A DNA stretch of 64,000 bases, from positions 15,828,140 to 15,892,139 of the forward strand of contig CP154954.1 in NCBI GenBank assembly GCA_039621445.1, written 5' to 3'. Positions 2,385-23,384 of the stretch are shown here, piece by piece; the stretch's first letter is position 1, and each line of letters starts with the position of its first letter. The notes under the pieces are model-generated. The model saw only the letters and a program-made list of their open reading frames with translations, made no database searches and was not told the DNA's origin. Both the position numbers and the translations under genes were made by a program. This stretch comes from Euglena gracilis (Eukaryota).

Positions 2385-2453
2385 GGTGGGTGGGTGGGTG
2401 GGTGTGGGTGTGTGTGTGGGTGTGGGTGTAGGTGTGGGTGTGGGTGGGTGGGT

Positions 2454-2533
<80 letters not shown>

Positions 2534-2550
2534 GTGTGTGGTGTGTGGGT
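1505..2550 (+). repeat. Compound (GT)n/(GTGG)n microsatellite; copy B ~35413-36312
   Basis: Visible directly in the sequence; source of the His-Thr and Cys-Val pseudo-ORFs. Confidence 0.97.
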
Positions 2551-3235: not shown

Positions 3236-3420
3236 AAAAACCTGGTGGGGTGCCAGGTTATCGGAGCCACCTTTTGGCCCCTCTGCCAGGTTGTTTGGGC
3301 CCTTTTTCAGCGCTGTAAAGGAATTTTACCTTCCAAAGGGGGGTACCAAGTTACTGGAACCACCTTTATAAAATAAACCTGGCAGGCCCTTGCTCCTGGC
3401 AGTGGCCGAACACCTTGGAA
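3236..3420 (+). repeat. Dispersed repeat family member (others at ~16430-16640 minus, ~27615-27825 plus)
   Basis: Shared core CTGCCAGGTT(A/G)TTTGGGCCCTTTTTCAGC...AAGGAATTTT(A/G)CCTT...CCAA(G/A)TTACTGGAACCA. Confidence 0.8.
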
Positions 3421-4142
3421 GGGGGAGGGGGAAAAAAGGTATTTGGTCAGTGCCAGGAGGAAGGGCCTGCCAGGTTGGTTTTATAATGATAAATCAACCT
3501 GTTAATAACTTTATCAATAAAAAAATTTGGGGGGGGGGTTAAGGTAACTTCAGGCCAACATGCAGGCCGATCTAACTTAAGGTCAACCTGAACTTATGAC
3601 GACCTGAATGTGGACAAAAAATTTGGATTTAATACAAGATACGGTACCAGCAGCGGGCCATTGAGTGGGAGGCGCTGTGGGGGGGGGGGGTATTTGCTTC
3701 CTGTTTGGTGGTGTAGTAGATAAGGTTGCCGGTCGGCATTCTTCCTGCCGGGGATCCTTCACCTGCTTGGTTCCCCACGAGGCACACAATGCGACGACCA
3801 AGCCCACACACAGCGTTCTGTCATGTACCGCATTGAGTGCACGACAGACATCAACTTGCTTCATAGAGGCAAGGAGGAGAGCAAGGGCCCTCTATCTGCA
3901 CTGGCAACCGTTGGGTCTTTTAGGTTGCAGTCCCAAAAGAGCCCCCCCCCCAAGGTGCGAAGTCGCAGGTTGAAACGAAGAACAATCAAACGGGGCATCC
4001 CTTTGTGGGTCTCTAGTCAACTTTCTGAGACAAAGAACTGCCCTGTGTACATACAGCACAGCCAACGCTGCCAGACAAGAGCAGGCTCAGAGAGAATAGT
4101 TATAATATTTTTTTGGTATAAGAAGCGGGGTTGAGGGAGGAC

Positions 4143-4552
4143 CAGGGTTCGATATAAGGACAGGTGGGGGGGGGGGTGGTCCGGACCCCCCCCTGCGGGC
4201 CAGGAGGGGGGGGGGGGGGGGGGGGGGCACCCCCCCCCACCTAAACAGGTGCGCGGTCAGGGTGGCCGAAAATTTTTGACCCCCCAAAACGACCAAAAGT
4301 GCCATTTTGGGCACTTTTGGGGCAAAAATGTGCCAAAAATGCAAAAAATTTTCGGCGCGAAGCGCCGGAGGAAAAAATTGACCCTTTTTGGGGGGGGTCA
4401 ATTTTTGCCCCCGAGGGTCGGTCCGGACCCCCCTTGCAGGTGGGGGGGGGGGTGGTCCGGACCCCCCCCTGCGGGCCAGGCGGGGGGGGGGGTGGGGGGG
4501 GGGACACCCCCCCCCACCTAAACCATGTACGCCCTCCTTATATCGAACCCTG
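4143..4552. mobile_element. hAT-type MITE (410 bp); copy B at 37906-38314
   Basis: Perfect 18-bp TIR CAGGGTTCGATATAAGGA / TCCTTATATCGAACCCTG and perfect 8-bp TSD GGGAGGAC (4135-4142, 4553-4560). Internal repeats of GGTCCGGACCCCCC. Confidence 0.92.
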
Positions 4553-6150
4553 GGGAGGACAGCGGCAACCCGCTTTGGCTTAGACGGAGGCAGCAACTGC
4601 AAAAAGGCAAAGACCCCTGTGCTCGTTGAACTGAAACCAAGCAAAGAACACTTCACAAATCACTGACCCAAGTCAATACTTTCCTTGAGGGCAATTCTGC
4701 GCCGTTGCATCCGCTTTGGATCAATGAAGTTGGGAGGCAGGTCGAGTTGGGGGGAAACTGGCAATTTGTGCCAAAAGCAGGAGCCAGGGGGGGGGGGGGG
4801 GGGGCGTCTCCACACCCACCCATCCCCTTGGGTGGATCCCAGGGTCTCACTTTTCCCCCAAAATGGCTAAAAATCACGAAAAATGCCAAAAAAATAGCAA
4901 CTCTTTCAAAAAAAATTGGCGCTTTCGTATAGTATATCCCCCCTGGGGGGGACTCACGGAGGGGGGGGGGAGGCACCGAGACCCCAGCGGTGCCCAGCCT
5001 CCTCGCGGCGGGAGGGGGGGCAACGTGCCGAAAGGCACGGCAAACCGGGCAAGAAATTTCTGGGAAGAGGTGGGCACCCCCACCTTCGCCCCCCCCCCTT
5101 CAGTCCCTCACGATGTCCAACGCCGACCCCTCGTCCCCCCCCTCCTCGTCTTTTTCAGTCCCTGTCGTTGTTCTACGAGCGGCGCTGGCTCTTGGTGTGC
5201 CCGCGGGCGGCGTGGTGCTTGGCTGTGCCCACGCTGACCCGCGGCACTGCGCCTTGCATGAGAGCCACACCAAACCAAACCAAACCACCCTTCCCCCCCC
5301 CCCGGGTCCAAGGCTAAAAAAAAACCCCTGGAGGAGGCGGGCTGTGCGGGAAGGCCTGGTGAGAGGGGTTGACCCCCCGCAAAAGACGGGGGAGGGGCGT
5401 GGTTTGCAATTCTGCGGGGAAAATACCGGGAAATCTTTGACAAAGGAAAAAAAACACCAGAAAAAGGGACATGTGTGGGAATTCTTAGAACGTCAAACTA
5501 AGTTCCTTTCCACATTCGACAGAGAACCGATCGATTTTGGGAAAGGGGGTGGTCGTGTGCACCATTTGAAAGAAAAGTTCAAAAACCCTGGTTTTGAACT
5601 CTGGGACACACGTGAATTTTCCCAAAACAGGGCCAGAACCCCGCTGTGAGTCCCTCGTTTTTGAAGCCTTGACTGTGTTCCCCACATGGTGCTGCAGAGG
5701 CTGGGTGAATTTTGGTCCTTTTTGTTGCTTTTTTAGGGTGTGTGTGATCTGCCTGTGAAAGTTTGCCTGATGAGGTGTCCAGAGGGTGGACTCTACACAC
5801 ACGTTGTGAAAAGTTGGGGAAACGGCATGTCACAGAGTTGTGATCCCTGGGTGCTTGAAGCGCGTTGAGCGGTACAGTGGGAACCACCCAGGGGGAGGGG
5901 TTGGGGGCAGAGGGTTTTCAGTCGTGGACCCGGGGGGGGGGGGCCTGTTGACCTTTGAAAACAACTTTTTTTCATTGTTGTCTCCAAAATTTTGTTTTTC
6001 ATTTTTGCACGGCGGTCGTTTTTTTCCAGCGTGCATGTGTTTTTTGGGGGGGGGTTTCATTTTTGTAAAATTTGCACCTTTAAACTTTTATTTATGTTTT
6101 TTCTCATTCTTTGAACCCTGCTACACCAGATTTCTGTCTTCATACGGGGG

Positions 6151-6285
6151 CAGGCAAGGACAGTCATTCCCGGTTTCGGTCTCCGGTGGGGTCCGTTGGG
6201 GTCCGGTGGGATCCGGTGGGAACCCACTAGTCAAATGGCCAAAAAAATGGTGGGATCCGGTGGGATCTGGTGGCTGTCCTTGCCT
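6151..6285. mobile_element. Small MITE nested in another repeat
   Basis: TIR CAGGCAAGGACAG / CTGTCCTTGCCTG, degenerate 8-bp TSD (TACGGGGG/ACCGGGGG) and internal CCGGTGGG(A/G)T repeats. Confidence 0.7.
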
Positions 6286-7232
6286 GACCGGGGGGGTCTC
6301 CCTACCCACCCACCCACCCACCCTGTGGGCAGGGGGGGGGGGAGGTCCCAGGGACCCCCCAACTTCTCCCCGAAATAGCCAAAAAATTGCGAAAAATATT
6401 AAAAATAGCACCTTTCCAAAAAAAATTGACGCCTTTGGCGCCAAACAGTATATCCCCCCTGGGGACCCGTCCCCGGGGGGGGCTCCACCGGACCCACCCG
6501 CCTCACCCCCCCTGGGGGTCCAAGACTAAAAAAGACCCTGACGAGGACTCTCTGAAAAATAAAATACAAAAAGCTTCCTCTTTTTCAGCCCCTTGCCCTT
6601 TCTCCATCACGAAGCACCTTACCTCCGCCCCAAAAAGCAAAAGCGGACACACGTGAGCCGAGTAGATCAGCACACTGCCTGCCCCGAGACGATGGGCACA
6701 GGGAGGGGCATATGGGACGCCGGAAATAGACACAGGGAGAGCAACTTCCAAGTGGTGATTGTTGTCTGGGGCAGGGCTGCAGATGCGGGTGTGTGGGAGG
6801 GGACACTGAAACAGAGCTGAAAGTGAACGGCCGCCCAGCATGGAATGTGTGCAGGGAACGGTCTGTCCCTGGACCTCAAATACGGCAGGTGCCCCTGAAA
6901 TCAACAAAAGAAAACAAACCACATGCTGCAGCTTGCAGAAACGTGTGTAAAAAAATAACCATGTGCCAATTTCCGACGTTGCGGAACCAAAAACAAAAAA
7001 AACAAAAAAGAACTTGGAATAAATACACAAAATGAGGGAAATGTCCCATCGGCGCCAACCACATCCCGACAGCCCAAGAGACGAGGGGGTGGTGACCTCC
7101 CCAGGCCAAGAGAGAGAAAAAAGAGTGAAAGTCCTGTACAGCAAAAGGCCTGGGCCCTTCCACACAGACGGGCAGAGGTACATGGCAGGCTGGGCTGCAC
7201 TGACGGGGAACTGAGATAAGGTGGGCTGGGAT

Positions 7233-7468
7233 CAGAGGCTTTTTTAAGACTGGGGGTCCCCCAACCCACCCCCCCCCCAAAAATGGACAAAAATCGCGAA
7301 AATGCCAAAAATAGTCCTATTTCAAAATTTTTCGGCGCCTTTGGCGCCGAAAAGTATATCCCACCAGCCCCTGGGGGGAGCCCCCCCAGACTCGGCCGGA
7401 CCCACCCACCCTAGCCCCCCCCCTCTCCCCCCCCCGGGGGGTCCAAGACTAAAAAAAAAAAAACACTG
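7233..7468. mobile_element. hAT-type MITE (236 bp)
   Basis: CAG...CTG ends with T-run/A-run subtermini and a 7/8 TSD (GCTGGGAT / GCTGGGGT). The GTCCAAG(A/G)CTAAAAAA..CCCTG end is shared with elements ending at ~5330 and ~6540. Confidence 0.7.
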
Positions 7469-8830
7469 GCTGGGGTTTGGGGCCCTTTCAACAGCCGGTG
7501 CACTCGTTGCGAGGTGGGCCCAGTCAGGACCACAAACACTGGGAAGCATCCGGTTCGAGGAGCAGCCGGGGCTCAGCACGCCGCCAACTCACCTCTCACT
7601 TCACCGCCGGCGGGGGAGAGGAGGACGGGAGGGGTTGGCACTCCATTTCGTCACTGCGTTCGGCGGGTCGCGGGCATTCGCCCATGGTTGCCCTCGTCGG
7701 CTGAATGCCAGGGGGAGGGGGGTCCCAATCAAACCCCCTCGGGGGGATTGGGCCGAGTCGGTGCCCTGCCAGAGGCGGGATTTTCTTCTGTTTTCGGTTC
7801 GAAGCGCCAAAAAAAATTGGACCCCAAAATTGACCCCCCAAAAGTCCTCCGGGCCTGGCCCCTGGGTCCTCCGGGCCGGGCCCCCCAGGGGGTGGGGGGG
7901 TGAGTCCGGACCCCCCCCGGGTCCTAAAAAACCTATGGCGGGAATCCCAGGCAAGGAGATAGAATGACTCAGAAAGATGGGTGTGCTTGAGACAAGGGAG
8001 GAGGGAGGGGGTTGGCTTTGGTGCTTCGGGTGGGGACAGGGCAGTTGCCTCCACTAGACACCCACTGTCACTTCCCACTTTGGTGCTGTGCTCGGCATTG
8101 GACGGCAAGTAGTTGTGCGTAGGAGGGGGTGTCAGAAAAATGGCATGTGTGACAACTATAGAAGGCGCTTTTACGCCGCTTTTGCACACCTTTGGCCACT
8201 TTTGGGCCGCTTTCGGGCAGATTTTGGTAACAATGCCAACGTTTGCCAACTTGGCTGACTTTTGGCTCCTTTTGGCCACTGCCGGATGCAACTTTAAGGC
8301 AACTTTGGCTGCTGTTAACTGCTTTTGGTCGCTTGTGTCCACTTTTGTCAACTTTTGGCAACTCTCGGGCAACATCTGGCCACCTTTGCCCCTTTTTGGC
8401 TGCCTTTTGACTGCCTTTGGGAACTTGTGGTCAATTTTGGTCACTAGTGGCTACTTCAGTCACTTTCCAAGAGCTATTTTAAAACCTTTCAAGGAGGGCG
8501 GTAGGGTCTGGGCAACCCATCCTAACATCCAGGGGGGGGTACAGACCAGGTTTTGAATAGTGCTAAGCTCTTAATAAGCGAGCACCCACCCCTTCATTGA
8601 CCCCCCATATAAACCGGCCCACTCCATGGAGCTCTTTTGACTGAAATGCAAGGGTTTTGTGCGCGAAACGGGGCGCCAGGGGTCGAAAAATGCTCATTTT
8701 CGGCGAAAAAATCACCTTTTCTGGGTCCTGGAGGCCAAAAAACATCGTTTGGGGCAAAAAAAGTTTTTCGATTTTTTTCGACTTTTTTGTCCCGAAAATG
8801 ATCCTAAGTGCATTGGTTTCGGGCCCAACA

Positions 8831-9812
8831 GGGGTCTCGAGGGGCGCTGGGGGCCGCCGACAGGGAGCTGCAGCCGAGGAGGGGTGCCCCAGGGGCCATG
8901 ACGAGCCCCCCTCGGTTGCCCGGGTGCCCAGGCGGCCACGAAAAAAGCGAGCCTCCAGTTTCGGCAGAAACCGATGGCCAGGGCTGCACAGTCCCGGACA
9001 CCTCACGGCGGCGGGGTGGAGCCCACCCACCTAAGGTCGCCCAAGCAAGGTGGACGAGTGTCCTGGAACATGGCCCCGGAAGGGCCTGCCAGACACCCAC
9101 ACGCCTTCGGGCGTGTGGTCACTTGGGCGCCCCTGCTACCCATGCAGGGAGGGCAGTGGAGTCGAGTCCGAAAGGACGCTGCCCGACGTGTCAGGCCAAT
9201 TGGTCCCGGAAGGGTGACGCCGCAAGGTCACTTGACCGGGGGTTGCCAGTCCACCTACGACACGGAGAGAGGGGGGCTCTCTCACCTACCGAACTCCCCC
9301 CCCCCCCCCTCCCCGGGTCGGGGCCACCAGGAGAACGACGGATTATCACCATGATCCGGCCCAGTTCCGGAATTTTTTCCAGTCGCGAGCGACTGGATTT
9401 CTAGTTTCCGATCATGGGTTTGACCCCAACTCCCCGCCAGGCCGAGTTATTCACGGGGGGGGGGGGGGTCTAAACTGGGTAGGAGGCCCGCCTGGATAAG
9501 CCCCACCCTTCGGACTCTGCCCTTTCGGCGTCAATTTTCAAAATATCTCCATGGCCAGATCAAAGGAAATGTCCGGAGACCTAAATTGCCCTTGGAACGC
9601 TCTATCTACTGGTATTTGGTTTCCCCGCAGCTCACCGCCTAGCCCGAAGACCATTTTTCGGCCCTTTGGGCCATTTTGTACACTTTTTCCACTGTTCGAC
9701 ACCGTTTCGGCCAAAAAAAATTCGTCGAAAGCCCGAAACGATGTTTTTTGGGCTCCCGGACCCGGGCTGTTTTTGGCCGATGAGCTCGACCCAACAGCGC
9801 CCGCCCCGTTTT
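8831..9812. other. Segment inverted relative to copy B (42590-43656)
   Basis: Copy A: GGGCCCAACA|GGGGTCTCGAG...GCCCGCCCCGTTTT|GACCTCC. Copy B: GGGCCC|AAAACGGGGCGGGC...CTCGAGACCCCG|GACCTCC. Confidence 0.92.
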
Positions 9813-10715
9813 GACCTCCGGCCGGAGCCGCACAGCTGCAGGCACCCGCCGGGCTGCATGGGCTTCCCCTGCCTGACCGGCCGCCCCTCCAGGCCCCCCC
9901 GGGGGTTGCCCGGACGGCACTGAAGCCGCTCGGGATCCCTTCGGGGCGGTCGGCCCACCCCACCCTCCTCCATGCCCACGCGCCGCGGGGAGCAGCGTGT
10001 GGGTTTAGGAGGGGTGCGGCCTGCGTTGGCGGCATGCCTCGGCTCCATGGCATGCCCCCGGGGTACCACCGTGCCACTGAGGCTGGAGGTGCAGGTCCGA
10101 CTTGGTACCCCGGGAGGGGGGAGGGGGGTCGAGGGGGAGGGTTTCGCCAGGGGTAAGCTTCGCTCTTACCCTAAAGGGATAAGAGCTGACCCCCCCCTAC
10201 CACCGACCTCAAAACTGAAGGGCTTCCCATCTGTCCATTCCCACCCTGGGGGTGTGACCTTCCTTAAAAAAGAAGCCCAATTTGTGTACAGCTCTGGGAA
10301 CCCCCCACAGCCAATTGAACAAAAGGTCTTCCAATCATTTCCCTGCCATGAACCCTCGGGGTGGGGCTGTCAGGGATGGGCCCACCCGCAAACCCAAGCT
10401 GCTTCGCAAGCAGCGCAGAGGGAACGCGACGCACGATTCGGAAAGCTTGCAGAGCCTGCAGGAGCTTTCGAGCCAAGAGCACGAAAATTGGGGCCCTTGG
10501 CTCTGGGAAAACCGAGGGGATGGTCCACAGGCTTGAGCGGCACCGGCAAATGCCGGGCACTGTGGAATGCAGGCCAAAGTTTCTGTGTCTGCAGCACAGG
10601 TGTTTTTAGGCCATTGGCAGTTTCTGGGCGGCTGGTTTTTTTTCTTTTGCACGTCAACTCCAGACACTGCGACCAATGGCGAGAGAGAGGGATATGTCTT
10701 CATCGGGAGAGAGTC

Positions 10716-10936
10716 ATGGCCAGGACCCCGCAGGACCCCCCCAGGACCCCCCCAGGACCCCCCCAGGACCCCCCCAGGACCCACCGGGGGGCGGCACCCA
10801 GATGACCCACTGACCGTGGAGTTCCGGGCGCCTTCGGCGCCCGCTACCGGGGGGGCTCCCGCCCCCCCCCCCGACCCCCCCGGGCTTCAAAATAACCTCA
10901 TCTTGTGCTGCAAAAATTTTGCCAAAAAGTTGCGGG

Positions 10937-10969
<33 letters not shown>

Positions 10970-11167
10970 AGGACCCCCCAGGTCCCCCCCAAGACCCCCC
11001 CCCCAGGACCCCCCCAAGGACCCCCCCAGTACCCCCCCAGGACCCCCCAGGACCCCCCCAAAACCCCCCCCCCCCCCCCCCCAGACCCCCCCAGGGCCCC
11101 CCCCAGGACCCCCCCAGGACCCCCCCCAGGACAGGGTCCTGGGGGGGGGGGGAACTGGCCATAAATG
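10716..11167. mobile_element. MITE-like element built from (GGACCCCCCCA)n repeats
   Basis: ATGGCCAG / CTGGCCAT inverted ends, ~11-bp tandem C-rich units and a central GGGCGCCTTCGGCGCCC hairpin. Confidence 0.55.
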
Positions 11168-11794
11168 GAGAACCACCGTATGGTTTACCTCCCCCCATGA
11201 TGAACATTTTACTACGCCATCAAAAGATGAATCTTAACAGCAAAAAAAAACGAGAAAAATGCAAACAAGGTGCCAAAAAGAAAACCGGAGAAGATGGATC
11301 AATCAGCAGAAACTGTGCACAAAATGAAAAGCATGTAAATTCCAAGAGCATGTGAACAAAGGAGAACACTAAAGTCCAGTATCATTCTGGAGGAATGCTG
11401 GAAACAAAACCGGAAATTAGAAGGGGGAAAGCGAAGGGGCGGGTGTCATCAGGAACAAGGAATATGACGTTTGAGAGGTATCCTCCATCATAAAGAATGG
11501 CTCACAATCACCTTCGCATAAGTTGTCATCCCCGCACCCATGCGCTCCCATTGTCCTTCAATCTTTTCCTTTGCCTTCACAAGACCACGAGGGGCCTTTC
11601 TTCCGGCGCCTTTAGTGCCGTGCGCCATTTTTGGTCATTTCCGGTCATCCCCCCCCCGTTCCTGGCGTGCCCAGTGCCCAAAAACCAATCAGTGGACCAA
11701 ACACCCCTGATGGTGGGGGGGGGGGGGCGGGAAGTGGCACACACTAAGCAAACAGCGGGGTTTGCATGCTGTGCGTGGACGGTTTGTGTGAACC

Positions 11795-11862
11795 AGCCCG
11801 GCCTCCTTCTTTGCAGCCGCAGTGCAAGCCGCGGTGCAAGCCGCGGTGCAAGCCTCGTGGAC
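11795..11862 (-). CDS. Probable small exon containing a 12-bp x3 in-frame repeat
   Basis: gtcttcccccAG acceptor, VHEACTAACTAACTAAAKKEAGL, then GTtcac donor. Confidence 0.35.
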
Positions 11863-13704
11863 CTGGGGGAAGACGTAGCTGGGGGATGGTGTTGCGGCCA
11901 GGCTGCTGTTCTTATTGAACATGCGCTGGGTGGCTTTGCATTCTTGTCCCTTTCAATAGCTGTCCCCCAACCTCAGCACCGCCAAGCAGGGGTTTTCTAA
12001 GAGAAATCCACCAGGCTTTTGCTTAAGGACCCGGGGGGGGGGTCCACTGGCTAGCCACTATTGCTGGAGGTGGGGAAAATGGACTGGCTAGACCCCCCTC
12101 CTCCCCGGGGGTCTCCCCCGGCTGGAAAAAATTCCTCCAGCGCTGCGCACCCAGGTGGGAATGAGGTTTTAATTGCATTTTTGGCTGATTTTGTTCCAAA
12201 AAGAAATCCCAAATTGGGCATTTTTGGCCATTTTGGGGGGCCAAAATTTTCGGCGCTTCGCGCCGGTCACTGGGACAAATTTTTACACTGGATGACCCGG
12301 CTAGCGGACCCCGCTCCTGGGGATTTCTACCAGCCAACACAATTTGGACCAGCTGCAGCCCAGCCCCCCCCCCCCGGATACTGCGAAACCTTTACCTCTA
12401 CGAGGAGGGGGGGTCCCGCGGACTGGCTGGAATAAGGATGCTGTGCCGCCTGCCCGGCTGGATCCCAGAAACCAGACAAAAAGGCCCAAATCCATCTGGG
12501 TTGCATTCAGCCAAAAATCTGGAGGTGAAAACCAAAAACCTCAAGAGTGCCGTTTTTTGGGGGCTGTTTTTGACTCCTTTTCTTCTAAAAAATTTTCCGT
12601 GCGTTTTCTTCCAAAAAAATTCTGGCCCATTCCTCTTCGCCACTGTCGCCAGTGGCGCAGTCGCCAGGCTGCCCCAACTTCATTTCAGTAGACCCGGGGG
12701 GGGGGGTGTTCAATGGAACGTCTTTGAAGTCTTGATTCTGATGAAATACGTTGAAGGTAACCCTGTTCCCCTGCATTGAGGAAGAAAACAGCCTTCTTGC
12801 AATCGCTTTAAAATATATGCGGTCGCGTTGCCCAGGAAACGATGCCCCAGCCCAGCAAGAGGGGGCAGCTGGCGGATGACGTGGGTTGCGAATGGGCGAG
12901 GACAAGGCTCCCCATCCAACCAGTGCGGACACACAAGAGGCAAAGGGCAGCAGAACGCAGTTTTTGATGGCGCGACCCAGATGGTTGTGTCCAGGTTGAT
13001 GCGCATGTTCCTCACCGAGCGACGTGACGAGGTCGAGGGTGAGATTGGTGCTGTCGAATGTCAAGCAGGTTGGAAGCACACCCCGGACGGTACGACAATT
13101 GGTACTGGTGCTGACGCACTGTCTCAATGGGTTAGGGTGCAGCTGCCCGTTAGGACAAGGAGTGATATTACATTACATACCACATACTGTGTTTGCCAGC
13201 CAACCGCACACAACACACTGACGAGTGTTCATGCGCGCATATGATGTTCTTGGACCTATGATGTTTTTGGGCGTGAGGCATGTTGGTATGTGCAATTGCA
13301 CACACAAACAAATTTTTGGTACATATTATGGATTCCATTCTGGTCTGGTGACAGGTCCCAGGAAAGGTAGAGACAGGGGATCTCCTGAAGGTGGGAGCAG
13401 CCACCCAATAACGGCGCACGTCCGCTGGCACCGATTTTAGGATCCCAACGGCCCTGCCTCTGGCCACAGCCTGGGCTCCGCTGCTGCAGCTACACTAGCT
13501 GCTGATGCTTCAGCACCCACCAGGCCGGCATCGACCTCCCCAGTGCAACAGTACCGTACCCACCGAAGCAGACATGTTGTTCACCAACCCATAATACCAG
13601 GTGTTAGAGGAGACAATGTGGTCATTGGGGTTGAACCCCTTCAGAAGCCACTAAAAGTGGTTGTTGAAGGGCCGAGTGATGCCGCTTTTTATTACTCCAT
13701 TGGT

Positions 13705-14355
13705 GGTTAATTTGTGCATTAGTGCGCCAGTGCGCAAATGACCCACTTCTGAATTTCTGCAAATGGCTCATTTGCGCCTTGGCGCCCACGAACAACGTGA
13801 TGTGCGCTTTAGCACAAACGAACCACCAGCGATTCACCGGCGTTTGACGGTTGTATATTTTGTCACAACGTTTATGAGCAAACTGTGTTCATGGGCATAA
13901 ATGCGCACACAAAAAATTTTGAGCGCGCTTTAGCTCCCAAGAACTGACGCCGTCGATAAACGGTGTGACAAACCCACCAAAATATACTTCTGGACGGCCT
14001 GCTGGTCTGCGCCGTCACAACCCAATTGTTTATCGACCACATCATCTTCGGCGCAAGCACACAATTTCATTTATGGGCGCAAATGCGCGCACAAACAAAA
14101 TTGTGTTTGTGCGCGCATTTGCACCCATCAAGACAATTTTGTTTGTGCGTGCATTAGCGCCCACGGTTTGTTTGCTAGGTTCTTTGCAACTAAACTGAAT
14201 TCCCAGTACAGGTTGGGCGGGAATTCCCCTCAGTTGGCTGTCCCCAAAACAGGAATTTGCTCATTTTTTGCCCTCTCTTGTCGCTGTGTTTCCAAAGCCC
14301 TAGTTACGCAGCCCAAAAAAGTTTCGTCTCAATTTTCACAAATGCGCAAACTAAC
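13705..14355. mobile_element. Foldback/MITE-like element with GCGCAAATG-type repeats
   Basis: GTTAATTTGTGCATTAGTG / CACAAATGCGCAAACTAAC inverted ends (16/19) and an internal near-perfect palindrome at 14073-14128. Confidence 0.5.
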
Positions 14356-14956
14356 ACAAAAAAAGGCTTAAATGCGAATTTGGCTACCTAAGATGCAACC
14401 CCATGAAAAAGGAGAGAGTTAACAACAAGGCCTGTCAACCATGGCAAGAATTTTGTGATACTACAGGGGAACACACGGTTTGCACATGGAACTTGCGGGG
14501 GAAGATGCAAGGCACAAAAACCCCCGACATTCGACCAGAGTGTATAATTCCACTGATATTTTGGGCAACGTGTCGGTCCAGCTGAGGTGCCTTGTGCTGG
14601 TCCATCCCAGAGGGCTTTGCACAAATGGCACAGCGACACCACGCCGGCTGACAACCAAAACACACAAACACACATGCACCCGCGAGCGCACGCACGCACG
14701 CACGCACACGCACACGCACACACACGCGCGCGCGCACGCACGTGCGTACAAGCACGCACAGCCACGTGTGGGCAGGAACAAACAGTGTACAGATGCGGCT
14801 TGCCAGGTAGGGCTGCAACGACCCAGCCACTGCCCCACACCTGAGATTATCCGCTTATTTAATTATTTAATTGATTAATTCAAGTGTTCATTATCATTAA
14901 TCTAATTATTTTGAGTAGCATTTCCCTAACGGATTTTTTGTTATTAATTTAATTTA

Positions 14957-15011
<55 letters not shown>

Positions 15012-15012
15012 A
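14957..15012 (+). repeat. (TTGA)n microsatellite
   Basis: Visible directly in the sequence. Confidence 0.95.
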
Positions 15013-17379
15013 TTTGCTTTTATTTTGTCAATTTAGAAGATGCATGAACTGACTAAGCCATCTCTTGAGGACCTCCTGGCCAGAGCATTGTTTTTAAGCA
15101 CCTTAAAAATCCTCAAAATGTCTTGCAATCTGCCTTACAGTTTTTGGCCAAAAATCCTTAAAAATTGGGACTAGCAGAATTTTCTTCTACTGAGCAAAAA
15201 TGAAATTGTCCAAAATTTTTTGCAAAAACAGATCAGGGAAGGAAAATGATTTCTGGCATCGCTAAAACATCATCCATTTGACCAAAATTCGAAGAAAAAA
15301 AAAAAAGAGGTTTGATTTTTTTTTGATTTCGGACTGTGCGCAAAAATCAAAAACGTTGGTTTGATGTCCAGACCGCCTTGGACCCTTAAAAAAAAAATGC
15401 CTTAAAATGCCTTAGGGGGGGAATGCCTCGGGGTTCAGGCCAATTTCACTGTCTGTCTGGAAAGCCAGCAGCTTGAGGCTGCCCCACCTTCTCCATCAGG
15501 GGGGGGGTCTGAAAAACAAAAGGGGGACAAGGGCTGGGACAAGGGACAAGGGAGGTGAGGTCTTGTGAACTGTTCCAGAAGTCCCAGTCAGGCGCATTTG
15601 AATACCCCCCCCCGGGGGAAGGCATCATCTGGCAAATACGAGTGGCCTTGGTGACAAATATCAGGGTCAGAAAATAATAATATTTTTGCAAAATTACACT
15701 GAAATAATGCATCTTTAATGAAATTCCTCACATATTTTTTGTGAGAAACACCAAAATATTTTCGCCATAACCACTCAATGGTCGAAGAAGGAAGGTGCTT
15801 CATGGATGAAAGTTAGGGCACACCAGAGCAGGTGTCAACTCAATATCCAAGGCACAATGACCTAGTTTGTGTGTTTGGGAACCTTCCAACGGCTGCCTCT
15901 TTAAGTTGGTGTATTGCTTGAACAATTCGGAGCAGGTGAGACGGAGGCCAGCAAGCTGTCATGAACACTTTGATCTTACAAAAAAAAGTGGGTTGTTTAG
16001 CACAATTGCGAAAAGGAACCACTTTTGCAGAAAAACTGAACAGCACGTTTGCGCAACTGCTAGAGCGGGCGGTTCCCACAAGGCTTAGGTGGTTCCTTTG
16101 CACTTACAAACCAAGCAGGTGCTCTTTAGAGGGTTAATCGAACATATCGAGGTTCGGATGGGGAAATTAGGAGTTGCCTGGAAATTCCAGTTTCAACCCA
16201 TGCCATTTTAAATGGTTTAAGATGGAACATGATGGGTTCAAACATGTATTCACACTGCAATGAGGGGGGGGGGGGCGCCATTTGTTGGCGCCATCCGTTC
16301 TCACACTGTAAAAACAAAACGTGATTAATCATTGATCAAACGTGATTAATAATTAGTCAAATAATTAAATAATTAATCAGCTAATTAAGTTGTTGACCCA
16401 AATTGGCTAGTTAACACACCAACTTTGTTCAAACCCCCCAAAAAACCTGGCGTGGTCCTTGCTCCTAACAGTGGCCAAATAACTTGGCGGCGGGTGGGGC
16501 AAAAAATGATGGTTCCAGTAACTTGGCACCCCCCCTTTTTAAGGCAAAGTTCCTTTATGACGTTGAAAAAAGGGCCGAAATAACCTGGCAGGGGGGGGGC
16601 AGGGCCAAAAGTTGGTTCCAGTAGCCTGGCACCCCACCAGGTTATTGGGGGGGGGGGGTTAGTGCGACCGCGGCGCCAAAGGCGCCACTGTCCCCGAGCA
16701 AGGGCGGTCTTTGACAAAAAAAAAGACTTCCCATCCCAGCACATTCAATGAAAAATTCGTAGGAAAAAGGAACGAAAAAATGGCCATATATTTTGGCGAA
16801 AATGGGTCGACTTCAGAGAAAAAAGTGATTTCTGGCACCCAAAACGTCAAAAAATGTGTTTTTGGATTTTTTCTTGTTTTTGACCCCGTTCAATCCCCGG
16901 ATTGGCCGGGGCCCTTAAGGGAAAAAACTTTCCGTCCCTTATTGCGCTGAGCTTGGGCTCCCCCTAAATTGTCCTTGTGAAAGAGGCTTTCAACAACAGG
17001 AAGCACAGAATTTTGTAGCGAGCCTCACTGCGCTAGTGTGAAACTACAGAAAAGTTCAAAGCAATTTGTATTTGATTGAAACTGGGCAGTTTTTTTTGGT
17101 CAATCCACCTGGGGTTAAAAATGAAAAACCAAATAAGAAATAAATATAAATATAACAATTAGCCACACTCACAAAAACAAATCAACTCGCATTCAGCACT
17201 GACACCATGAGGACATGCCCCGGGCATGTCCCAATGCCCTAATGTCATTATGGCATGTCTTTATGGCACAAAAAAGTGTGAGGATGAAAGACATTTGAAC
17301 TTCATGACGGCGTTGGGTCGTGGGGGAAACCATCGAGTGGGTGTGTTTATGACTTAAAAACGTCCGCATTCGGGGGGGG

Positions 17380-17655
17380 TATACCCACCAAGCTGTCACC
17401 TGACAGGTTGGCCAGTACCGGGGACCCTGACAACTTCCTGTCATGACAGGTTGGCTGGTACCAAGGACCCTGACAGTTTCCCGGGGGGACCCAGACATTT
17501 TCCTGGGCAAAGAATTTCAAGGGAAAATAAATGAAAATGACCCTGACAGGTTCGACGGTACCAGGGGCCGGTAACAGTTACCCTGACAGTTTCCTTGGCG
17601 GGACCCAGACCGGTTCTCGGGCATGATAATTTCCCAGGGTGGGGGGTAGGTATAA
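17380..17655. repeat. MITE-like segment with repeated GGTACC...CCCTGACAG units
   Basis: Five to six CCTGACAG-type units flanked by TATACCCACC / GGTAGGTATA. Confidence 0.45.
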
Positions 17656-18391
17656 TGCAACACTCTGACGTGGTTCTTTGACCAACTAAGACATGCTGCA
17701 CAAACACTCGAGTTCGTGGATTCTGTTTCCACTATCCTCCTGTCTCAGAATTCTTCGTTGTCAAGGCCTTGAAAAATGAAATTAACTTTGGGACGCTTGT
17801 CAAATAAACCACATGATAAATCATGCACCATTTTGAATCGTTCCTTTGCGTAATTGCGAACTTCACAACTTTTATTCTCCAGATCCAAACAGGTCGACTT
17901 AGGAGGCTGTTGGTTGATTTGAAGTGGTTCCTTTGTGAAATTGTGCAAAAAGAACAGAGAAGGTTCCTTTGAGAATTTGCACAAAGGATGGGTGTTACAG
18001 AGTCTCAACTTAAGTGGGGTGATGTGGCAAACCTGCCACACAGCTCAACAAACTGGTGGAAGCCCATCTGTGCTCTTTGTCCTTTTCATCTACGAGAAAC
18101 CTTCTCCAGGAGTTAGCTTCCACACAGGGGTTCAAAATTCCACAACATATTTTGAGGGGAAAAAAACACCAAATTCCGCCCTTTCCCAGGTTTCACCCCG
18201 AAAACTGTGGAACTGCACAGGCCGCCATGCAACCGGGAATTCAGAAGCCTAACTCCCTTGAAATCAAAAAACACTTTCCTTTGCGCAAATGTGCACGGGA
18301 ACACGAAGGCATAAACCCTACAAATATAAAGCCCCCCCCCGGCTTTGTATTTGGGTCAGATTTCAAGACCCTCAGAGGTTTTTTTTTTTTA

Positions 18392-18424
18392 NNNNNNNNN
18401 NNNNNNNNNNNNNNNNNNNNNNNN
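18392..18424. other. Assembly gap (33 N)
   Basis: Run of N. The equivalent sequence is resolved in copy B at ~52199-52245. Confidence 0.99.
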
Positions 18425-19826
18425 ATGTTGGGGGGGCTGAAACCTATTTCTAACACAAACGTTATGAATTATGGCAAATCCTGAACCGTGCAGTGACGGT
18501 ATCAGCAGGGATGCAGACCTGTCACCTTAGGGCTGTCTCCCCCTGCTTATCTGCCCCCCCCCCTTGCCCAACAACGGTTTCCTACAACCTGCGACATGGG
18601 GGAGGGGGGGGGGGGCTCAGAGGCACTCCCTCACCTGCAAGCCCAACCAAGGTTGATGGGTATATAGGTGGACGGTGTGCAACGGGGGGACCAAAGGAAG
18701 CACCCGGCCAAAGCCACTGCTTTGGTGCTGGCCCGCCTTTTCAGTCAAACGGAAAGGGGCAACCAGCAGCAGTAGCGGCTACCGGGGCGGGGGGGAGGGG
18801 GGGAAGGGGGGAGTTGTCAGTGATCCGGTTTGGAGTGCCGCCACGGCAAGCGTCAGCCATTCTCATTCCCATCGACCGCCATCCAGATGGGGAACTGGCA
18901 CAGATTCACTGAACCTCTGCGCGACCCATGTGGGGCAGGCTTTCAAAGGCAGGTGTTTGGAATTGGTGTTTGGCATGGTGGGGTGCTTTGAAAAATGGCG
19001 CTGGTGGGTCTGGGGGGGCGGGGGTGTTGGACTTAACTGGAGCCCGAAAGCAGCAAAAAAAAAAAAACAGTCCAAATACAGCTAGGTGGAGATTAGGGAA
19101 TTTCTTAAGGACCCCCCCCCAGGGGAGGGCCCAGCCTCCGGCTGGCAAAAAGGCTGCTGGCTGGACCCCCCTGGGGGGTGGGGGGGGGGGGGGGGGGTCC
19201 GGGGGTGGAGGGGGCTGGGCTGGGCTGGGTCGATGAAAACCAAAATTTTCTAAAACATTTTTTTCATTTTCGACATTTTGATGGATGGAGCTAGATCAAG
19301 GGCGGGGGGCTGTGATGGAGGAAGCTGTGATGAGGGGAAAACAAGCATGGATAGGTGAGCTGGGCAGCCCAGCTGGCTGGCCAGCCTGCGGCCGCCTGGC
19401 CCGGCCTCCGGCCGCCTGGCCCGGCCTCCGGCCGGGCTGGACCCGACCGGGGGGAGCAGTTTTTCCCAGGCCCAAACCCACCCAGAATGTTTCCCGCAAA
19501 AAAAATCCCATTCGACGTTTTTCCCCCTCCGGTGTCTCCTTGCCTCTCCAGTATCGCCTTGGATGTGAGGAATGGCTGGGGCTGTCAGCAAGTCCAACTG
19601 GCCTGGGAGGGTGGACGTGCCACCCATCCATAGAACAAGCCGCTGATGGCGCAAAAAAGCCAATGGCTGGGGTGGGCGGAGGGGTCCAGGCCCACATGGG
19701 TGGCAGTTGCAGCACAGGGTTGTCCTGCCTCATATTTGCCGGGGAAAAAAAACAAACCAACAACCTCTGGGAAAACGTCTCCAGACAAGTCAGGTGAGAG
19801 ACACAGGTACACAGGTCCAGAGAGAG

Positions 19827-20205
19827 GTAAACCCCCCCTAATTGTAGAGCGGGTGCTCTTGTAGTGGACGCTCGCTTCGCCAGAGGTGGGGTGCTCTTCT
19901 TCTTGTAATGGACATCACACACATTTTCCTACAGCCTCCCTTCCTCCACCTAAACCGGCAACCAAGTGCCAACGGCAGCCGACGTTGGGGGAATTGTTCA
20001 GCCGCTGAGCTCTGGGAAGCTTGTCTTTTTGAGGCAAGTTACAAACCTTTTCACAATCACATGGAATGACTTGCCTCGCTTCTGCTTCCATTGGTTTTCC
20101 AGGGGGATGCTCTTGTAGTGGACGCTCGCTTCGCCAGAGGGGGGGTGCTCTACTATTTGGACCCTGCTCTTGTACAGGGCACGCCCTACTATTAGGGGGG
20201 GTTAC
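19827..20205. mobile_element. Degenerate MITE with ~24-bp TIRs (Tc1/pogo-like termini)
   Basis: GTAAACCCCCC(C)TAATTGTAGAGCG versus CGCCCTACTATTAGGGGGGG(G)TTAC, plus an internal ~44-bp direct repeat (19853-19897, 20108-20151). Confidence 0.6.
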
Positions 20206-21399
20206 ACAGGTGGAAACAGGTCCCTAAAAGGGCAGATCAGCGTGTATGGGGGTAGAGGACAGTTTCCGGGGAGGGGGGGGGGCAGGTATATGCATCAGCC
20301 TGTGCTACTGGCCTTGTCCCATTGAGAAATGATTTTTGTCATCATAAATTACCTTTACAACAGAGCAACAAAGGGAAGGTTCTCTCTATCTATGAGTTCA
20401 AAAATGTGAGATATTTAGATCGTTTCCAGGGTTTTTAAACCTGGAGGGAGGGTAAATCGTGCAGAGAAAAAAATGAGCAACTCTGGGGGGAGCAGCAGCT
20501 GGTCACTTAGAAAATTAGAGAAGACTAAAAGTTGATGAAAAAGATTGTGGAAAAAATAGTTTGATGAATTTTCTATTCTGGATGATTATTTTTGCTAAAG
20601 ATTAATAATCAACTATTTTTTGCACTCTTTTGCCACGTGTCGATCAGTTTTATACTTACGCTTCATTGAAAGAATCGAACAAATGAAGGCTGTTTTCCAT
20701 CAAAATGCCAACATTTGCCGACATCCATGCATTCTCTGGCCATCAAGACCAGTTAACAACCATTTTTGATCAATTTAGGATGGATCCTTCATAGGAGGGT
20801 GTCAAGGAATTGACAGTGGTCGAAAATTAAATTAAAAAATTGAAAAAAATAAAAAAAAGAAATCAACAAGTGTGAAGAAATTAAGGTAAGAGTTGGGGGA
20901 CTTTACCAAAATTTCTCTCCGCCCGATGAGGCGGGGGACGCCGGACTTGCCGGAGCGGACCAGAAAGCCGGCTGTGTCGTGGCAGAAAAGACCACCGCAT
21001 GAGACCATCACAAGAGGTTCATTATTTACGGGATTCGGGCGACACAACTTCAGAAAGTAAATATCAAATAATTTTCACTCCGAGGCCGCCGCGGGAGAGG
21101 GCTTATCATTGTGGGCATATGCCAGACAGAGCCAAAACAACCTTCAAAATAAAAGGAAGGCAGTTCCCTCCCCCGTCCAGTCTCGAGCCTGGCCATGGGA
21201 ACAAAATTCATGAGAACCCCGCGCTGTCTCCTGTCGAGACGAGGGGAAAATACAGAGTCATTGCATCACCCTTGCTGCAGCAAGGGCATTGGAAACCCCT
21301 CGGGTGCCATCCACAAGAGGGGGAATTTCGCCCAGAAAACCACATTTTTTTGACCAGTTGAGTCGTTCAGCCGTTCTGTTCATTTTTTTTTATGCATGA

Positions 21400-21620
21400 G
21401 TTGGCCGAGTGCAAATGACCAAGTGGCCCAACTGCGTGACCAAGGGCACCAAAGAAAATCTGCACCCGAGTAATCTGGGGACGTTTTATCCTCAACCCTG
21501 AGGAGTGTGTGAACACCAGAACCCACCCGCCACCCCAGCTACCCAAACAGTCCCACAGTGCATTGATGGGCTGATATGGAAAGGCAGCACACAAATTTTG
21601 TCGGAATGGCAGCAGCAGAC
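21400..21620 (-). CDS. Pair of probable small exons separated by a GT-AG intron
   Basis: tttcAG acceptor, LLLPFRQNLCAAFPYQPINALWDCL, GTagct...cctcAG intron, then GLRIKRPQITRVQIFFGALG in the same phase. Lower boundary is approximate. Confidence 0.35.
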
Positions 21621-21984
21621 CTGAAACTCAGGTTGGAGGGGCTGTTCGGCAGCTTCCTTCCCCAGGGTTGGGCGGGAAGGCTGGGAGGGGGGAAAGCCAC
21701 AAAAGGACACTGCAAAGATGGAGTTTCAACACCAACCAAGGCCGGGTCCTGGCATCCAACACCCCAGGAGGCAAGCCAGAGGTCAGAGGGCTGCGAAGTG
21801 CCCGCAAGGCAGGAACCCCGCACCGCTTGAACCGAACCAGGGGCCACTGGGCTTCGGCTGCGGAGGACACACTCAGAGCATTGGGCAGGTGGGTGCCTGA
21901 CCGGGGTGTTGGTGAGGGAGGTTTGACACACGGGTGCCGGCCAAAGAACCCGGAAGCTACTGGATGTATGCGGCGCCTCATGTT

Positions 21985-22144
21985 ATCTTATTTTTATTAT
22001 TTTTGTTATCATTTATTTTATTGCTTTTATTATAGTTATTATTATTATTATTATTATATTATTATTATAGTAGTCGTAGTAGTAGTAGTAGTAGTAGTGT
22101 AGTAGTCGTCGTGTAGTAGTAGTAGTAGTATCGTAGTAGTAGTC

Positions 22145-22177
<33 letters not shown>

Positions 22178-22335
22178 ATTAAGTAGTAGTATTAATATTA
22201 TTTTATTATTATTTATTTATTTATTATTTATTATTTATTATTTATGTATTTATTTATTTATTTCTTCATTTCATTCTTATTATTCATTTATTTATTTATT
22301 TTATTATTTATTTTATTATATTTTTTTTATTATTG
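21985..22335 (+). repeat. Compound (TTA)n-(TAG)n-(TTTA)n microsatellite
   Basis: Visible directly in the sequence; copy B ~55800-56160. Confidence 0.93.
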
Positions 22336-22922
22336 CCTCCTGTGCTATTTTATTTTTTGCTATTTTTTGGCGTGGCAAGCTGCAAAGCTGGAAAAGAAAA
22401 GCGTGGCAGCAGATGGGCGCCTCTGTGCCACACATTGTTGCCAGGAGGCTGGATTTGACCACCCCGGGGTGAGGAAGGGGACATCGGAGTTCCGGGTGCA
22501 TTTCCAGGCAGGGACTACCCCCCGGGTCGCACCTACCACAAAAAAAATTGCCCGGAACAGAACCTTTTTGGGATTCCAGCAACATATGCACCGGCGGTGG
22601 GGGGGGGGTGTCGACCCCACCACCCATAGGGTTCTGGGCACTCCCGTACCCCGGGGGGTCGTGAAACAGATCAACCGAAAAGGTACTCAAACCCCACTGT
22701 TCATCATTTCTGGAAATTCGAGGATATTGTTTCACCAGGGTTGCCTGAGAAAGAGACGTTGTGAAACCTCTGTAGGCCCATCAACGGTGCTTTGCATCAG
22801 ACACTTTCAGCCCGACCCACACCCGGGCCCTAGCGTGAGACTGGCTGTTCCGCATGAAAAACGTCTGTGTGCTAATTTGTGAAGCCATTTCCTTTCTCCC
22901 CACCAATCATCCTTATCCTTAC

Positions 22923-23384
22923 CATGGGCTTGAACTTTTTCGCTTGAACCTTGGCCTTGGGTCTGGGTGAAAAGCACAGCGGAGCTCCACACTTGTGGCA
23001 TAAAAAATGAGCGGCTCCTGCCGTCAGGGTTTGAACCATGCTTGTGCTTACCAACCGGGGGGGGGGTGGATGCTCTAGGGTGCCTGCCCCTAGCAGGCAC
23101 ACCCCCAGGGGGGGGGTCCGGGGGGACCCAGAAAATTTTCATTGAAAATGGCCTTTTCCGGGCCCCCGGCGCCAAAGGCGCTGGGGTCGGAGGGGGGGTG
23201 CCTGCTAGGGGCAGGCACCCCCAAAACCCCACCCCCCGGGGGGGGGGTCGGATTGGGTGCTATGGGGTGCCTGCCCCTAGCACCCCCCCCTGTGGGGTAG
23301 GCACCCGACTAAGCACAAGCCTGGTTTGAACCAAACTTGTCAGGGTGAGCAACCCGACGGAAGCTACCACACGTTCCCCTCCAG
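22923..23384 (-). CDS. Probable exon interrupted by a MITE (23037-23323)
   Basis: Pyrimidine-rich ...ttccttgttgtgcaAG acceptor upstream and a GTAAGG donor at ~22922. Two frames stay open once the MITE plus one TSD are removed, one reading FRRVAHPDKFGSNPDG. Confidence 0.45.
23037..23323. mobile_element. hAT-type MITE (287 bp)
   Basis: TIR CATGCTTGTGCTTA / TAAGCACAAGCCTG and perfect 8-bp TSD GTTTGAAC (23029-23036, 23324-23331). Internal GGGTGCCTGCCCCTAGCA repeats in both orientations. Confidence 0.9.

What the first reader, a model, noticed from the sequence alone, without database searches (positions are those of the whole stretch)
4135..23331. hAT-type MITEs whose geometry reproduces the euglenid non-conventional intron signature (possible introner system)
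Seen: several unrelated short elements end in CAG...CTG (or CAG...ATG on the minus strand) and have 8-bp TSDs (4143-4552, 7233-7468, 23037-23323). Established: hAT elements make 8-bp TSDs, and euglenid non-conventional introns are hairpins with CAG at +4..+6 and CTG at -8..-6, usually followed by a purine. Inference: 3 nt before CAG plus 5 nt after CTG equals one 8-bp TSD, so splicing at the non-conventional positions removes the MITE plus one TSD and restores the pre-insertion exon exactly. The TIRs supply the stem. All three insertions leave a minus-strand frame open when removed this way, so the window may show MITEs turning into introns.
Basis: partly seen in the sequence, partly recalled or inferred. 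Interest (0 to 1): 0.82.

Follow-up and report, generated by a model that had tools for sequence, protein, structure and literature searches.

The report
hAT-like MITEs in gene-free repeat DNA
The short elements are real cut-and-paste transposon relics with 8-base target duplications whose ends match the shape of Euglena's odd introns, but nothing shows that they sit in genes or are spliced here.

Summary
The sequence observation holds. Elements 4143-4552, 7233-7468 and 23037-23323 have inverted ends starting CAG (one end of the third reads CAT) and 8-bp direct flanks matching 8/8, 7/8 and 8/8. Ten shuffles gave no such element. I accept three more: 29018-29441, 839-1326 and 21733-24065. By target-duplication length and end sequence they are hAT-like MITEs. 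No transposase could be sought, because no genome is held.

The intron reading is not supported in this window. None of 290 ORFs of 60 aa or more has a Pfam domain. The two flanking ORFs I searched have no relatives. The minus-strand frames left open after removal (74, about 150 and 221 aa) are no longer than at random positions (median 122 aa). On the minus strand, none of the three meets all four published requirements of the Euglena non-conventional splicing code. Only 4143-4552 meets them all, and on the plus strand.

The RNA test could not be run, and I could not name the host.

The MITE origin of these introns has been in print since 2013. The new part is the arithmetic: a 3-nt plus a 5-nt spacer equals one 8-bp hAT duplication. 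A 2016 report of 8-nt repeats at a newly gained intron fits it.

The parts
4143..4552 (.). E1, a 410-bp MITE. Perfect 18-bp TIR starting CAGGG. Internal 86-bp direct repeats (element positions 19-104 and 295-381). Central GGCGC-GAA-GCGCC hairpin at 4354-4366. Copy 2: 37906-38314.
   Evidence: In the RNA fold the ends are paired by the TIR: MFE -277.4, z -9.55, 12/12 terminal pairs.
4135..4142 (.). Left target-site duplication of E1, GGGAGGAC. The right copy is at 4553-4560.
   Evidence: 8/8 identical. Identical in copy 2.
7233..7468 (.). E2, a 236-bp MITE. Ends CAGAG...CACTG. Weak TIR based on a T-run against an A-run. Flanks GCTGGGAT/GCTGGGGT (7/8). Central GGCGCC-TTT-GGCGCC hairpin at 7334-7348. 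Copy 2: 40994-41229.
   Evidence: No terminal stem in the fold: z -0.84, 0/12 pairs.
6290..6540 (.). Decayed relative of E2, 70% identical over 169 bp. Its 3' end ...AAGACTAAAAAAGACCCTG ends at 6540. No intact 5' end or flank repeat was found. The left boundary is approximate.
23037..23323 (.). E3, a 287-bp MITE. Ends CATGCTTGTGCTTA ... TAAGCACAAGCCTG (TIR 13/14). Flanks GTTTGAAC at 23029-23036 and 23324-23331 (8/8). Copy 2: 56863-57147.
   Evidence: Fold z -9.30, 11/12 terminal pairs.
21733..24065 (.). E6, a candidate 2333-bp non-autonomous element. Ends CAACCAAGGCC / reverse-complemented CAGCCAAGGCC. Flanks TTCAACAC/TTCATCAC (7/8). E3 is nested inside it.
   Evidence: Weaker than the others, because it comes from the relaxed scan, whose controls are noisy.
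29018..29441 (.). E4, a 424-bp A/T-rich element. CAG...CTG ends, TIR 10/14. Flanks AAAGCAGG 8/8. Copy 2: 62978-63421.
   Evidence: No terminal stem in the fold, 0/12 pairs.
839..1326 (.). E5, a 488-bp element. Ends CAGGGCGGAGCGGG / reverse-complemented CAGGGCTGCACGGG (11/14). Flanks GGTTCGGG/GGCTCGGG (7/8). A/T-rich repeat core. Copy 2: 34733-35222.
   Evidence: 8/12 terminal pairs in the fold.
12173..12264 (.). Fragment related to the E1 centre (79.5% over 83 bp), with the GGCGC-TTC-GCGCC core at 12252-12264. No ends were defined.
1..33885 (.). Copy 1 of a 33.9-kb tandem duplication. Copy 2 runs from 33886 to 64000 and is cut by the end of the window. Outside repeat tracts the copies differ mostly by 0-1.5%.

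Best explanation
These are non-autonomous cut-and-paste DNA transposons (MITEs), most likely of the hAT superfamily. They inserted into repeat-rich DNA with no recognisable gene, each making an 8-bp target duplication. They were then copied passively when a 33.9-kb segment duplicated in tandem.

The termini (CAG...CTG), the inverted ends and the 8-bp flanks are the footprint of the transposase. They are not evidence of splicing at these sites. Because the Euglena non-conventional splicing code consists of just these features, an element of this kind that landed in a euglenid exon would be predicted to be removed precisely from the RNA. Here only E1 on the plus strand meets every requirement of that code.

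Shown: the ends, the flanks, the folds, the duplication, and the lack of coding signal. Inferred: the hAT assignment, past mobility, and the host.
For: - Structure: TIR plus 8-bp flank repeats for E1 (8/8), E3 (8/8), E4 (8/8), E2, E5 and E6 (7/8 each). The strict scan gave 3 hits against 0 in 10 shuffles.
- Superfamily: hAT is defined in print by 8-bp TSDs and short TIRs. A known hAT MITE, Mar, has the TIR CAG(G/A)GGTAGGC (PMC3517528; PMC3942097).
- Age: all elements are in both copies of the duplication at about 98.3% identity, so they inserted before it.
- No coding signal: 0 of 290 ORFs of 60 aa or more have a Pfam hit at E<=0.01. ORF 23263-23832(-) had 0 hits among 508 candidates. ORF 7599-8450(-) had 0 hits among 1.84 billion representatives.
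- No RNA genes: no Rfam family at gathering score and nothing close to it; no tRNA.
- Frames open after removal are no longer than background.
Against: - No autonomous hAT transposase and no further family copies could be sought, because no genome is held. A metagenome scan with the E1 end gave only 8 single chance matches.
- No empty site exists in the window, so mobility is inferred from structure alone.
- The flank sequences do not fit the Buster target consensus nnnTAnnn (0 of 6; consensus).
- Other superfamilies also make 8-bp duplications (P, Merlin; recalled, not tested).
- Pfam scans of ORFs of 60 aa or more can miss short exons of lineage-specific genes.
- Transcription of the region was never examined.
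Confidence: 0.7

Rival explanations
1. The MITEs interrupt exons of one or more minus-strand genes and are removed from the pre-mRNA as non-conventional introns, at 3 nt before CAG and 5 nt after CTG. This would restore the pre-insertion reading frame.
For: - The geometry is exact, and the published code asks for nothing more than these features.
- Minus-strand frames of 74, about 150 and 221 aa stay open across the healed junctions.
- E1 and E3 fold with their ends paired.
Against: - The open frames are at or below background: median 122 aa, at least 200 aa at 15% of random positions.
- 0 of 290 ORFs have a Pfam domain, and both flanking ORFs searched are orphans.
- On the minus strand, E1 has C at the acceptor exon start, E2 has no stem, and E3 has ATG in place of CTG. 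Each of these failed in the knock-in assays of PMC12501133.
Confidence: 0.07
2. The region is transcribed without coding, for example as a long non-coding RNA, an untranslated region or read-through. Elements that fit the code, E1 above all, are cut out as circular RNAs with no consequence for any protein.
For: - E1 on the plus strand meets all four published requirements.
- Excised non-conventional introns are reported as circular RNAs (review PMC11282704).
Against: There is no evidence of transcription either way. The host was not identified.
Confidence: 0.13
3. The elements are MITEs of another superfamily that also makes 8-bp duplications (P-like, Merlin-like or Mutator-like), not hAT.
For: - E3 starts CATG and E4 CAGTA. 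Their fifth base is not G, unlike the hAT end consensus I recall.
- The flanks do not fit the Buster target consensus.
- A paper title in a search listing reports Merlin transposons in Discoba (PMC8101967; listing only).
Against: E1, E2 and E5 start CAGGG or CAGAG, like classic hAT ends and like the Mar hAT MITE. Five of the six elements have CAG at both ends; E3 has CAT at one.
Confidence: 0.12
4. These are not mobile elements. They are chance palindromes or slippage products in DNA that is rich in G/C runs.
For: - The unit holds 111 G or C runs of 7 nt or more.
- The relaxed scan gives 6-7 hits even when the compared flanks are moved outward.
- Some relaxed hits are plainly artefacts (4228-4494, 14092-14145).
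Against: The ends of E1, E3 and E4 are not low-complexity sequence. Their 8-bp flanks are exact and differ from one another. The strict scan found nothing in 10 shuffles.
Confidence: 0.03

Closest known systems
hAT-superfamily MITEs (for example Mar and Vege of Drosophila willistoni; Ds-type elements)
   Same: Short size, no coding capacity, short imperfect TIRs that begin with CAG, and 8-bp target duplications.
   Different: - They are very G/C-rich, with many homopolymer runs (E1-E3: 57-69% GC), where MITEs are usually A/T-rich.
- Several otherwise different elements share a central GGCGCC-loop-GGCGCC hairpin module.
- No autonomous partner is known.
- Copy number is unknown.
Euglenid non-conventional introns (Milanowski et al. 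2014 and 2016; PNAS 2025 splicing code)
   Same: CAG and CTG set 3 nt and 5 nt inside the boundaries if the boundaries are drawn within the flank repeats, a terminal stem (E1, E3, E5), and a purine after the 3' spacer on the plus strand in E1-E5.
   Different: - No exons, transcripts or excision are shown here.
- E3 has a broken motif.
- E2 and E4 lack the stem.
- The host is unidentified.
Introners (Micromonas, Polarella, Amoebophrya and others)
   Same: They are MITE-like DNA transposons whose duplication and ends supply the signals for removal from RNA (review PMC11282704).
   Different: Introners are defined as many near-identical copies inside genes, mostly removed by the spliceosome, with 3-5 nt duplications in the cases cited. 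Here there is one copy per family per unit, no genes, and 8-bp duplications.

Membership tests
hAT superfamily (non-autonomous member) | 8-bp target-site duplication | tested here: met
   E1, E3 and E4 match 8/8; E2, E5 and E6 match 7/8. Definition from PMC3517528 and PMC3942097.
hAT superfamily (non-autonomous member) | Short TIRs (5-27 bp), typically starting CAG or TAG | tested here: met
   TIR matches: E1 18/18, E3 13/14, E5 11/14, E2 and E4 10/14. All ends start CAG except one end of E3, which starts CAT. The fuller end consensus (pyrimidine-A-purine-N-G) is recalled, not taken from a call. E1, E2 and E5 fit it; E3 and E4 do not.
hAT superfamily (non-autonomous member) | An autonomous element with the same ends that encodes a hAT transposase | not testable with these tools
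   No genome is held. None is in the window: 0 of 290 ORFs have any Pfam domain.
hAT superfamily (non-autonomous member) | Target consensus of a hAT family (Buster, nnnTAnnn) | tested here: not met
   0 of 6 flank repeats have TA at positions 4-5 (consensus). The Ac-type consensus is only recalled, and six sites are too few to judge it.
MITE (as a class) | Many copies at unrelated sites, each with its own duplication | not testable with these tools
   Within one 33.9-kb unit, each family has one copy, plus one decayed relative of E2. The metagenome scan found only chance matches.
Euglenid non-conventional intron | Lies between exons of a transcribed gene and is absent from the mature RNA | not testable with these tools
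There is no coding signal around the elements.
Euglenid non-conventional intron | A CAG / CTG motif (more generally C-D-G with a complementary C-H-G) 3 nt and 5-6 nt inside the boundaries | tested here: inconclusive
   E1, E2, E4 and E5 meet it by construction if the boundaries are placed inside the flank repeats. E3 does not (CAT...CTG, or CAG...ATG on the other strand) (rule).
Euglenid non-conventional intron | Purine at the first base of the downstream exon | tested here: inconclusive
   Plus strand: G, G, A, A, G for E1-E5. Minus strand: C, A, A, T, A (rule).
Euglenid non-conventional intron | Base pairing just inside CAG and CTG that brings the ends together | tested here: inconclusive
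   Terminal pairs formed in the minimum-energy fold: E1 12/12, E3 11/12, E5 8/12, E2 0/12, E4 0/12.
Euglenid non-conventional intron | The host is a euglenid (or a diplonemid) | not tested
   Run labels are coded. The window holds no conserved gene or RNA that could place it.
Introner | A family of near-identical copies that make up introns in many unrelated genes | not testable with these tools
   No genome or annotation is held.

The most novel reading that the evidence does not exclude
The euglenid non-conventional splicing code may be the RNA image of a hAT insertion. CAG...CTG would be the transposon termini. The 3-nt and 5-nt spacers would be the two parts of one 8-bp target duplication. 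Splicing would then be a precise excision, at the RNA level, of a hAT-type MITE.

[quoted passage not shown] Under this reading, both junctions are copies of the same target, with a pyrimidine at position 5 and a purine at position 6.

It would also explain the eight-nucleotide direct repeats at the newly gained gapC intron of E. agilis ACOI 323, which its authors put down to double-strand-break repair.

On this reading the elements in this window would be the free-living, non-genic members of the pool that seeds such introns.
Probability: 0.3. Interest if true: 0.8.

Novelty: new member of a known kind. Interest (0 to 1): 0.45.

Why it matters
Where euglenid non-conventional introns come from, and what removes them, has been open for over two decades. 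The 2025 code paper still calls their origin unclear and points only to "MITE-like" elements.

Genomic MITEs with CAG...CTG ends and 8-bp duplications would turn that vague idea into a checkable one. It names a superfamily. It predicts an 8-nt peak in the junction repeats of young introns. It predicts intron families that match non-genic MITE families. It also points to a hAT transposase or a host factor that recognises hAT ends.

This window supplies only the transposon half of that argument, and only if the host is a euglenid.

Tried and rejected
- **RNA evidence.** The look-up of sequencing runs listed no holder on record as RNA. It did list four raw-read RNA runs with the same species label.
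- **Whole genome.** None is held.
- **Metagenome scan** with the 18-nt end of E1: 8 loci, each with a single match and no further similarity. These are chance matches.
- **Pfam.** 290 ORFs of 60 aa or more from copy 1, 0 hits. Low-complexity ORFs were left out: of the 118 ORFs of 110 aa or more, those in the repeat tracts, and among ORFs of 60-109 aa, those whose three commonest residues make up 45% or more.
- **Homologues.** ORF 23263-23832(-): none. ORF 7599-8450(-): none.
- **Rfam.** Nothing at gathering score. With E<=0.1, six weak matches, all far below their cut-offs.
- **tRNA.** None.
- **Codon-position test between the two copies.** Dropped, because there are too few substitutions (mostly 0-8 per 500 bp).
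- **Search for an empty site between the copies.** None; all elements are in both copies.
- **Relaxed-scan hits rejected.** 4228-4494 and 4505-6795 are G/C runs. 14092-14145 is part of a perfect palindrome. 16785-17533 and 28466-30424 have weak ends.
- **Literature search for the hAT end consensus by its IUPAC spelling.** Found nothing relevant.


Full report
**What is in the sequence**

The three elements are as described.
- E1 (4143-4552, 410 bp) has a perfect 18-bp terminal inverted repeat starting CAGGGTTCGATATAAGGA. It is flanked by GGGAGGAC on both sides.
- E3 (23037-23323, 287 bp) has ends CATGCTTGTGCTTA and, reverse-complemented, CAGGCTTGTGCTTA (13/14). Its flanks are GTTTGAAC on both sides.
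- E2 (7233-7468, 236 bp) has CAG...CTG ends. Its inverted repeat is mostly a T-run against an A-run (10/14). Its flanks match 7/8 (GCTGGGAT/GCTGGGGT).

Chance does not explain these.
- A scan of copy 1 for exact 8-bp flank repeats next to at least 11/12 inverted ends gave 3 hits, against 0 in each of 10 dinucleotide shuffles. One of the 3 is a G-run artefact.
- A relaxed scan (CA...TG ends, flanks at least 7/8, TIR at least 10/14) gave 11 hits, against a mean of 1.3 (maximum 5) in 30 block shuffles.
- The same relaxed scan with the compared flanks moved outward by 8, 16 and 24 nt gave 0, 6 and 7 hits. Relaxed hits are therefore unreliable in this G/C-run-rich DNA and were judged one by one.

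From the relaxed scan I accept three more elements and reject five hits.
- E4: 29018-29441, flanks AAAGCAGG, 8/8.
- E5: 839-1326, flanks 7/8, CAGGGC at both ends.
- E6: 21733-24065, flanks 7/8, accepted more cautiously. E3 is nested in it.

**Context**

The window is a tandem duplication of about 33.9 kb. Copy 1 is 1-33885 and copy 2 runs from 33886 to the end of the window. Outside repeat tracts the copies are mostly 98.5-100% identical. Every element is in both copies with the same flanks, at about 98.3% identity for E1-E3. They therefore inserted before the duplication, and the window holds no empty site.

The elements are not fully unrelated.
- E1, E2, a decayed E2 relative ending at 6540 and a fragment at 12173-12264 share a central module, AAAATTTTCGGCGC-loop-GCGCCG.
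- The pattern GGCGCN(2-8)GCGCC occurs 10 times, against 0.31 expected.
- E1-E3 are 57-69% G+C and packed with G or C runs.

**Is there a gene?**

I found no sign of one.
- No Rfam family reaches its gathering score, and the six matches at E<=0.1 are far below their cut-offs.
- There are no tRNAs.
- 290 stop-to-stop ORFs of 60 aa or more from copy 1 gave 0 Pfam hits at E<=0.01. Low-complexity ORFs were left out.
- The 190-aa ORF that abuts E3 on the minus strand had no relative among 508 word-sharing candidates.
- The 284-aa ORF upstream of E2 on the minus strand, the longest ORF that is not low-complexity, had no hit among 1.84 billion cluster representatives.
- The translations look like read-through of non-coding DNA.

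- Removing 3 nt + element + 5 nt takes out 418, 244 and 295 nt. Each is 1 modulo 3.
- It leaves spanning minus-strand frames of 74 aa, 147-150 aa and 221 aa.
- At random positions in 4000-24000 the longest minus-strand spanning frame has a median of 122 aa. It is at least 150 aa at 38% of positions and at least 200 aa at 15%.

Short exons of a lineage-specific gene cannot be excluded this way.

**Fit to the published splicing code**

The PNAS 2025 study (PMC12501133; I read passages and section 5) defines the code by knock-in assays. It has four parts:
- a CAG-CTG motif, in which single substitutions abolish splicing;
- a 3-nt spacer before CAG, with no length tolerance, and 5-6 nt after CTG;
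- base pairing just inside the motif, without which function was lost.

Fit of each element to the motif, the acceptor base and the terminal stem, by strand. The two spacers are not listed, because they are met by construction once the boundaries are placed inside the flank repeats:

| Element | Plus strand | Minus strand |
|---|---|---|
| E1 | meets all requirements (GAC\|CAG...CTG\|GGGAG\|G; 12/12 terminal pairs; z -9.55) | C at the acceptor base |
| E2 | motif and purine met; no terminal stem (0/12; z -0.84; 39 of 200 shuffles fold as well) | same as plus strand |
| E3 | CAT...CTG, motif broken | CAG...ATG, motif broken |
| E4 | motif and purine met; no terminal stem (0/12) | T at the acceptor base; no terminal stem (0/12) |
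| E5 | motif and purine met; 8/12 terminal pairs | same as plus strand |

**What could not be done**

- No genome is held. Family copy number and an autonomous transposase are therefore untested.
- A metagenome scan with the E1 end gave 8 single matches with no further similarity, which I take as chance.
- The run search listed DNA holders and four raw-read RNA runs with the same coded species label.
Expression and splicing are therefore simply unknown.
- The host is coded and I could not place it. All statements about non-conventional splicing depend on its being a euglenid.

**Comparison with what is known**

By the criteria used for MITEs (duplication length and ends), these are hAT-like: 8-bp duplications and short TIRs, with CAG starts as in the hAT MITE Mar (PMC3517528 passages; PMC3942097 passages).
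- Against a Buster-type assignment, 0 of 6 flank repeats have the central TA.
- Other superfamilies that make 8-bp duplications are not excluded.

The idea that non-conventional introns descend from MITE-like elements is in print:
- Milanowski et al. 2014 (PMC3935182 passages);
- the 2016 and 2018 papers;
- a 2024 review that shows TIRs and "TSD-like" repeats (PMC11282704 passages);
- a diplonemid study;
- the 2025 code paper, which still calls the origin unclear.

None of the passages I read names hAT or equates 3 + 5 nt with an 8-bp duplication.
- A full-text search for Euglena + hAT + MITE + intron found 0 papers.
- Searches found none either, judged from the listings and the passages read.
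- The review contains no "8 bp", "8-bp" or "superfamil".
- Subscription journals and supplementary files were not searchable.

The 2016 paper reports a newly gained, strain-specific non-conventional intron in E. agilis gapC. It has "eight nucleotide direct repeats" at its junctions, longer than in the other introns analysed there. The authors ascribe this to double-strand-break repair.

[quoted passage not shown] That is what two copies of one target would give. This link is my inference.

**Verdict**

The elements are best read as hAT-like MITEs in non-genic, recently duplicated repeat DNA (confidence 0.7). The claim that this window shows MITEs becoming introns is unsupported (about 0.07 for the exon version).

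The general hAT-geometry hypothesis refines a known idea. It is plausible, and I did not find it in print. It can be tested directly on public data. I give it about 0.3.

Noticed in passing
window 1-33885 and 33886-64000: The whole window is a tandem duplication of a unit of about 33.9 kb. The copies are mostly 98.5-100% identical outside repeat tracts. DNA runs of only 1-2 billion letters hold about 60-65% of the sampled words of 3600-13500. That could mean the unit is multi-copy, but I did not test this.
   Followed up: partly
window 8831-9813 versus 42589-43655: A segment of about 1 kb is inverted between the two copies (89.7% identity in reverse). In copy 1 it lies between 33-nt inverted repeats at 8723-8755 and 9731-9763 (91% complementary). 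This fits inversion by recombination between the repeats, or an assembly artefact.
   Followed up: partly
window 4354, 7334, 10827, 12252, 16672 (and the same sites in copy 2): A recurrent hairpin core, GGCGC(C)-loop-(G)GCGCC, often preceded by AAAATTTTC. There are 10 matches against 0.31 expected. It forms the centre of several otherwise different MITEs. It could be a shared internal module or a binding site.
   Followed up: partly
window 10720-11140: Long arrays of CCAGGACCCCCC-like units and C-runs of up to 32 nt. The unit as a whole has 111 G or C runs of 7 nt or more.
   Followed up: no
window 1500-2550 and 35410-36310: A complex GT-rich tandem array, about 80% self-similar at many offsets. 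It is the most divergent part between the two copies (14-16% mismatches).
   Followed up: no
window 26902-26997: A 96-nt tract, almost pure A, is present in copy 1 and absent from copy 2. Conversely, copy 2 has a 209-bp insertion at 58980-59188 that copy 1 lacks.
   Followed up: no
window 14075-14130: A near-perfect palindrome of about 55 nt (GCGCAAATGCGCGCACAAACAAAATTGTGTTTGTGCGCGCATTTGC). It gave weak, sub-threshold microRNA-precursor matches in Rfam. A similar one lies near 14684-14751.
   Followed up: no
window 18392-18424: A run of 33 N in copy 1. It is either an assembly gap or a masked stretch. Copy 2 is continuous there.
   Followed up: no
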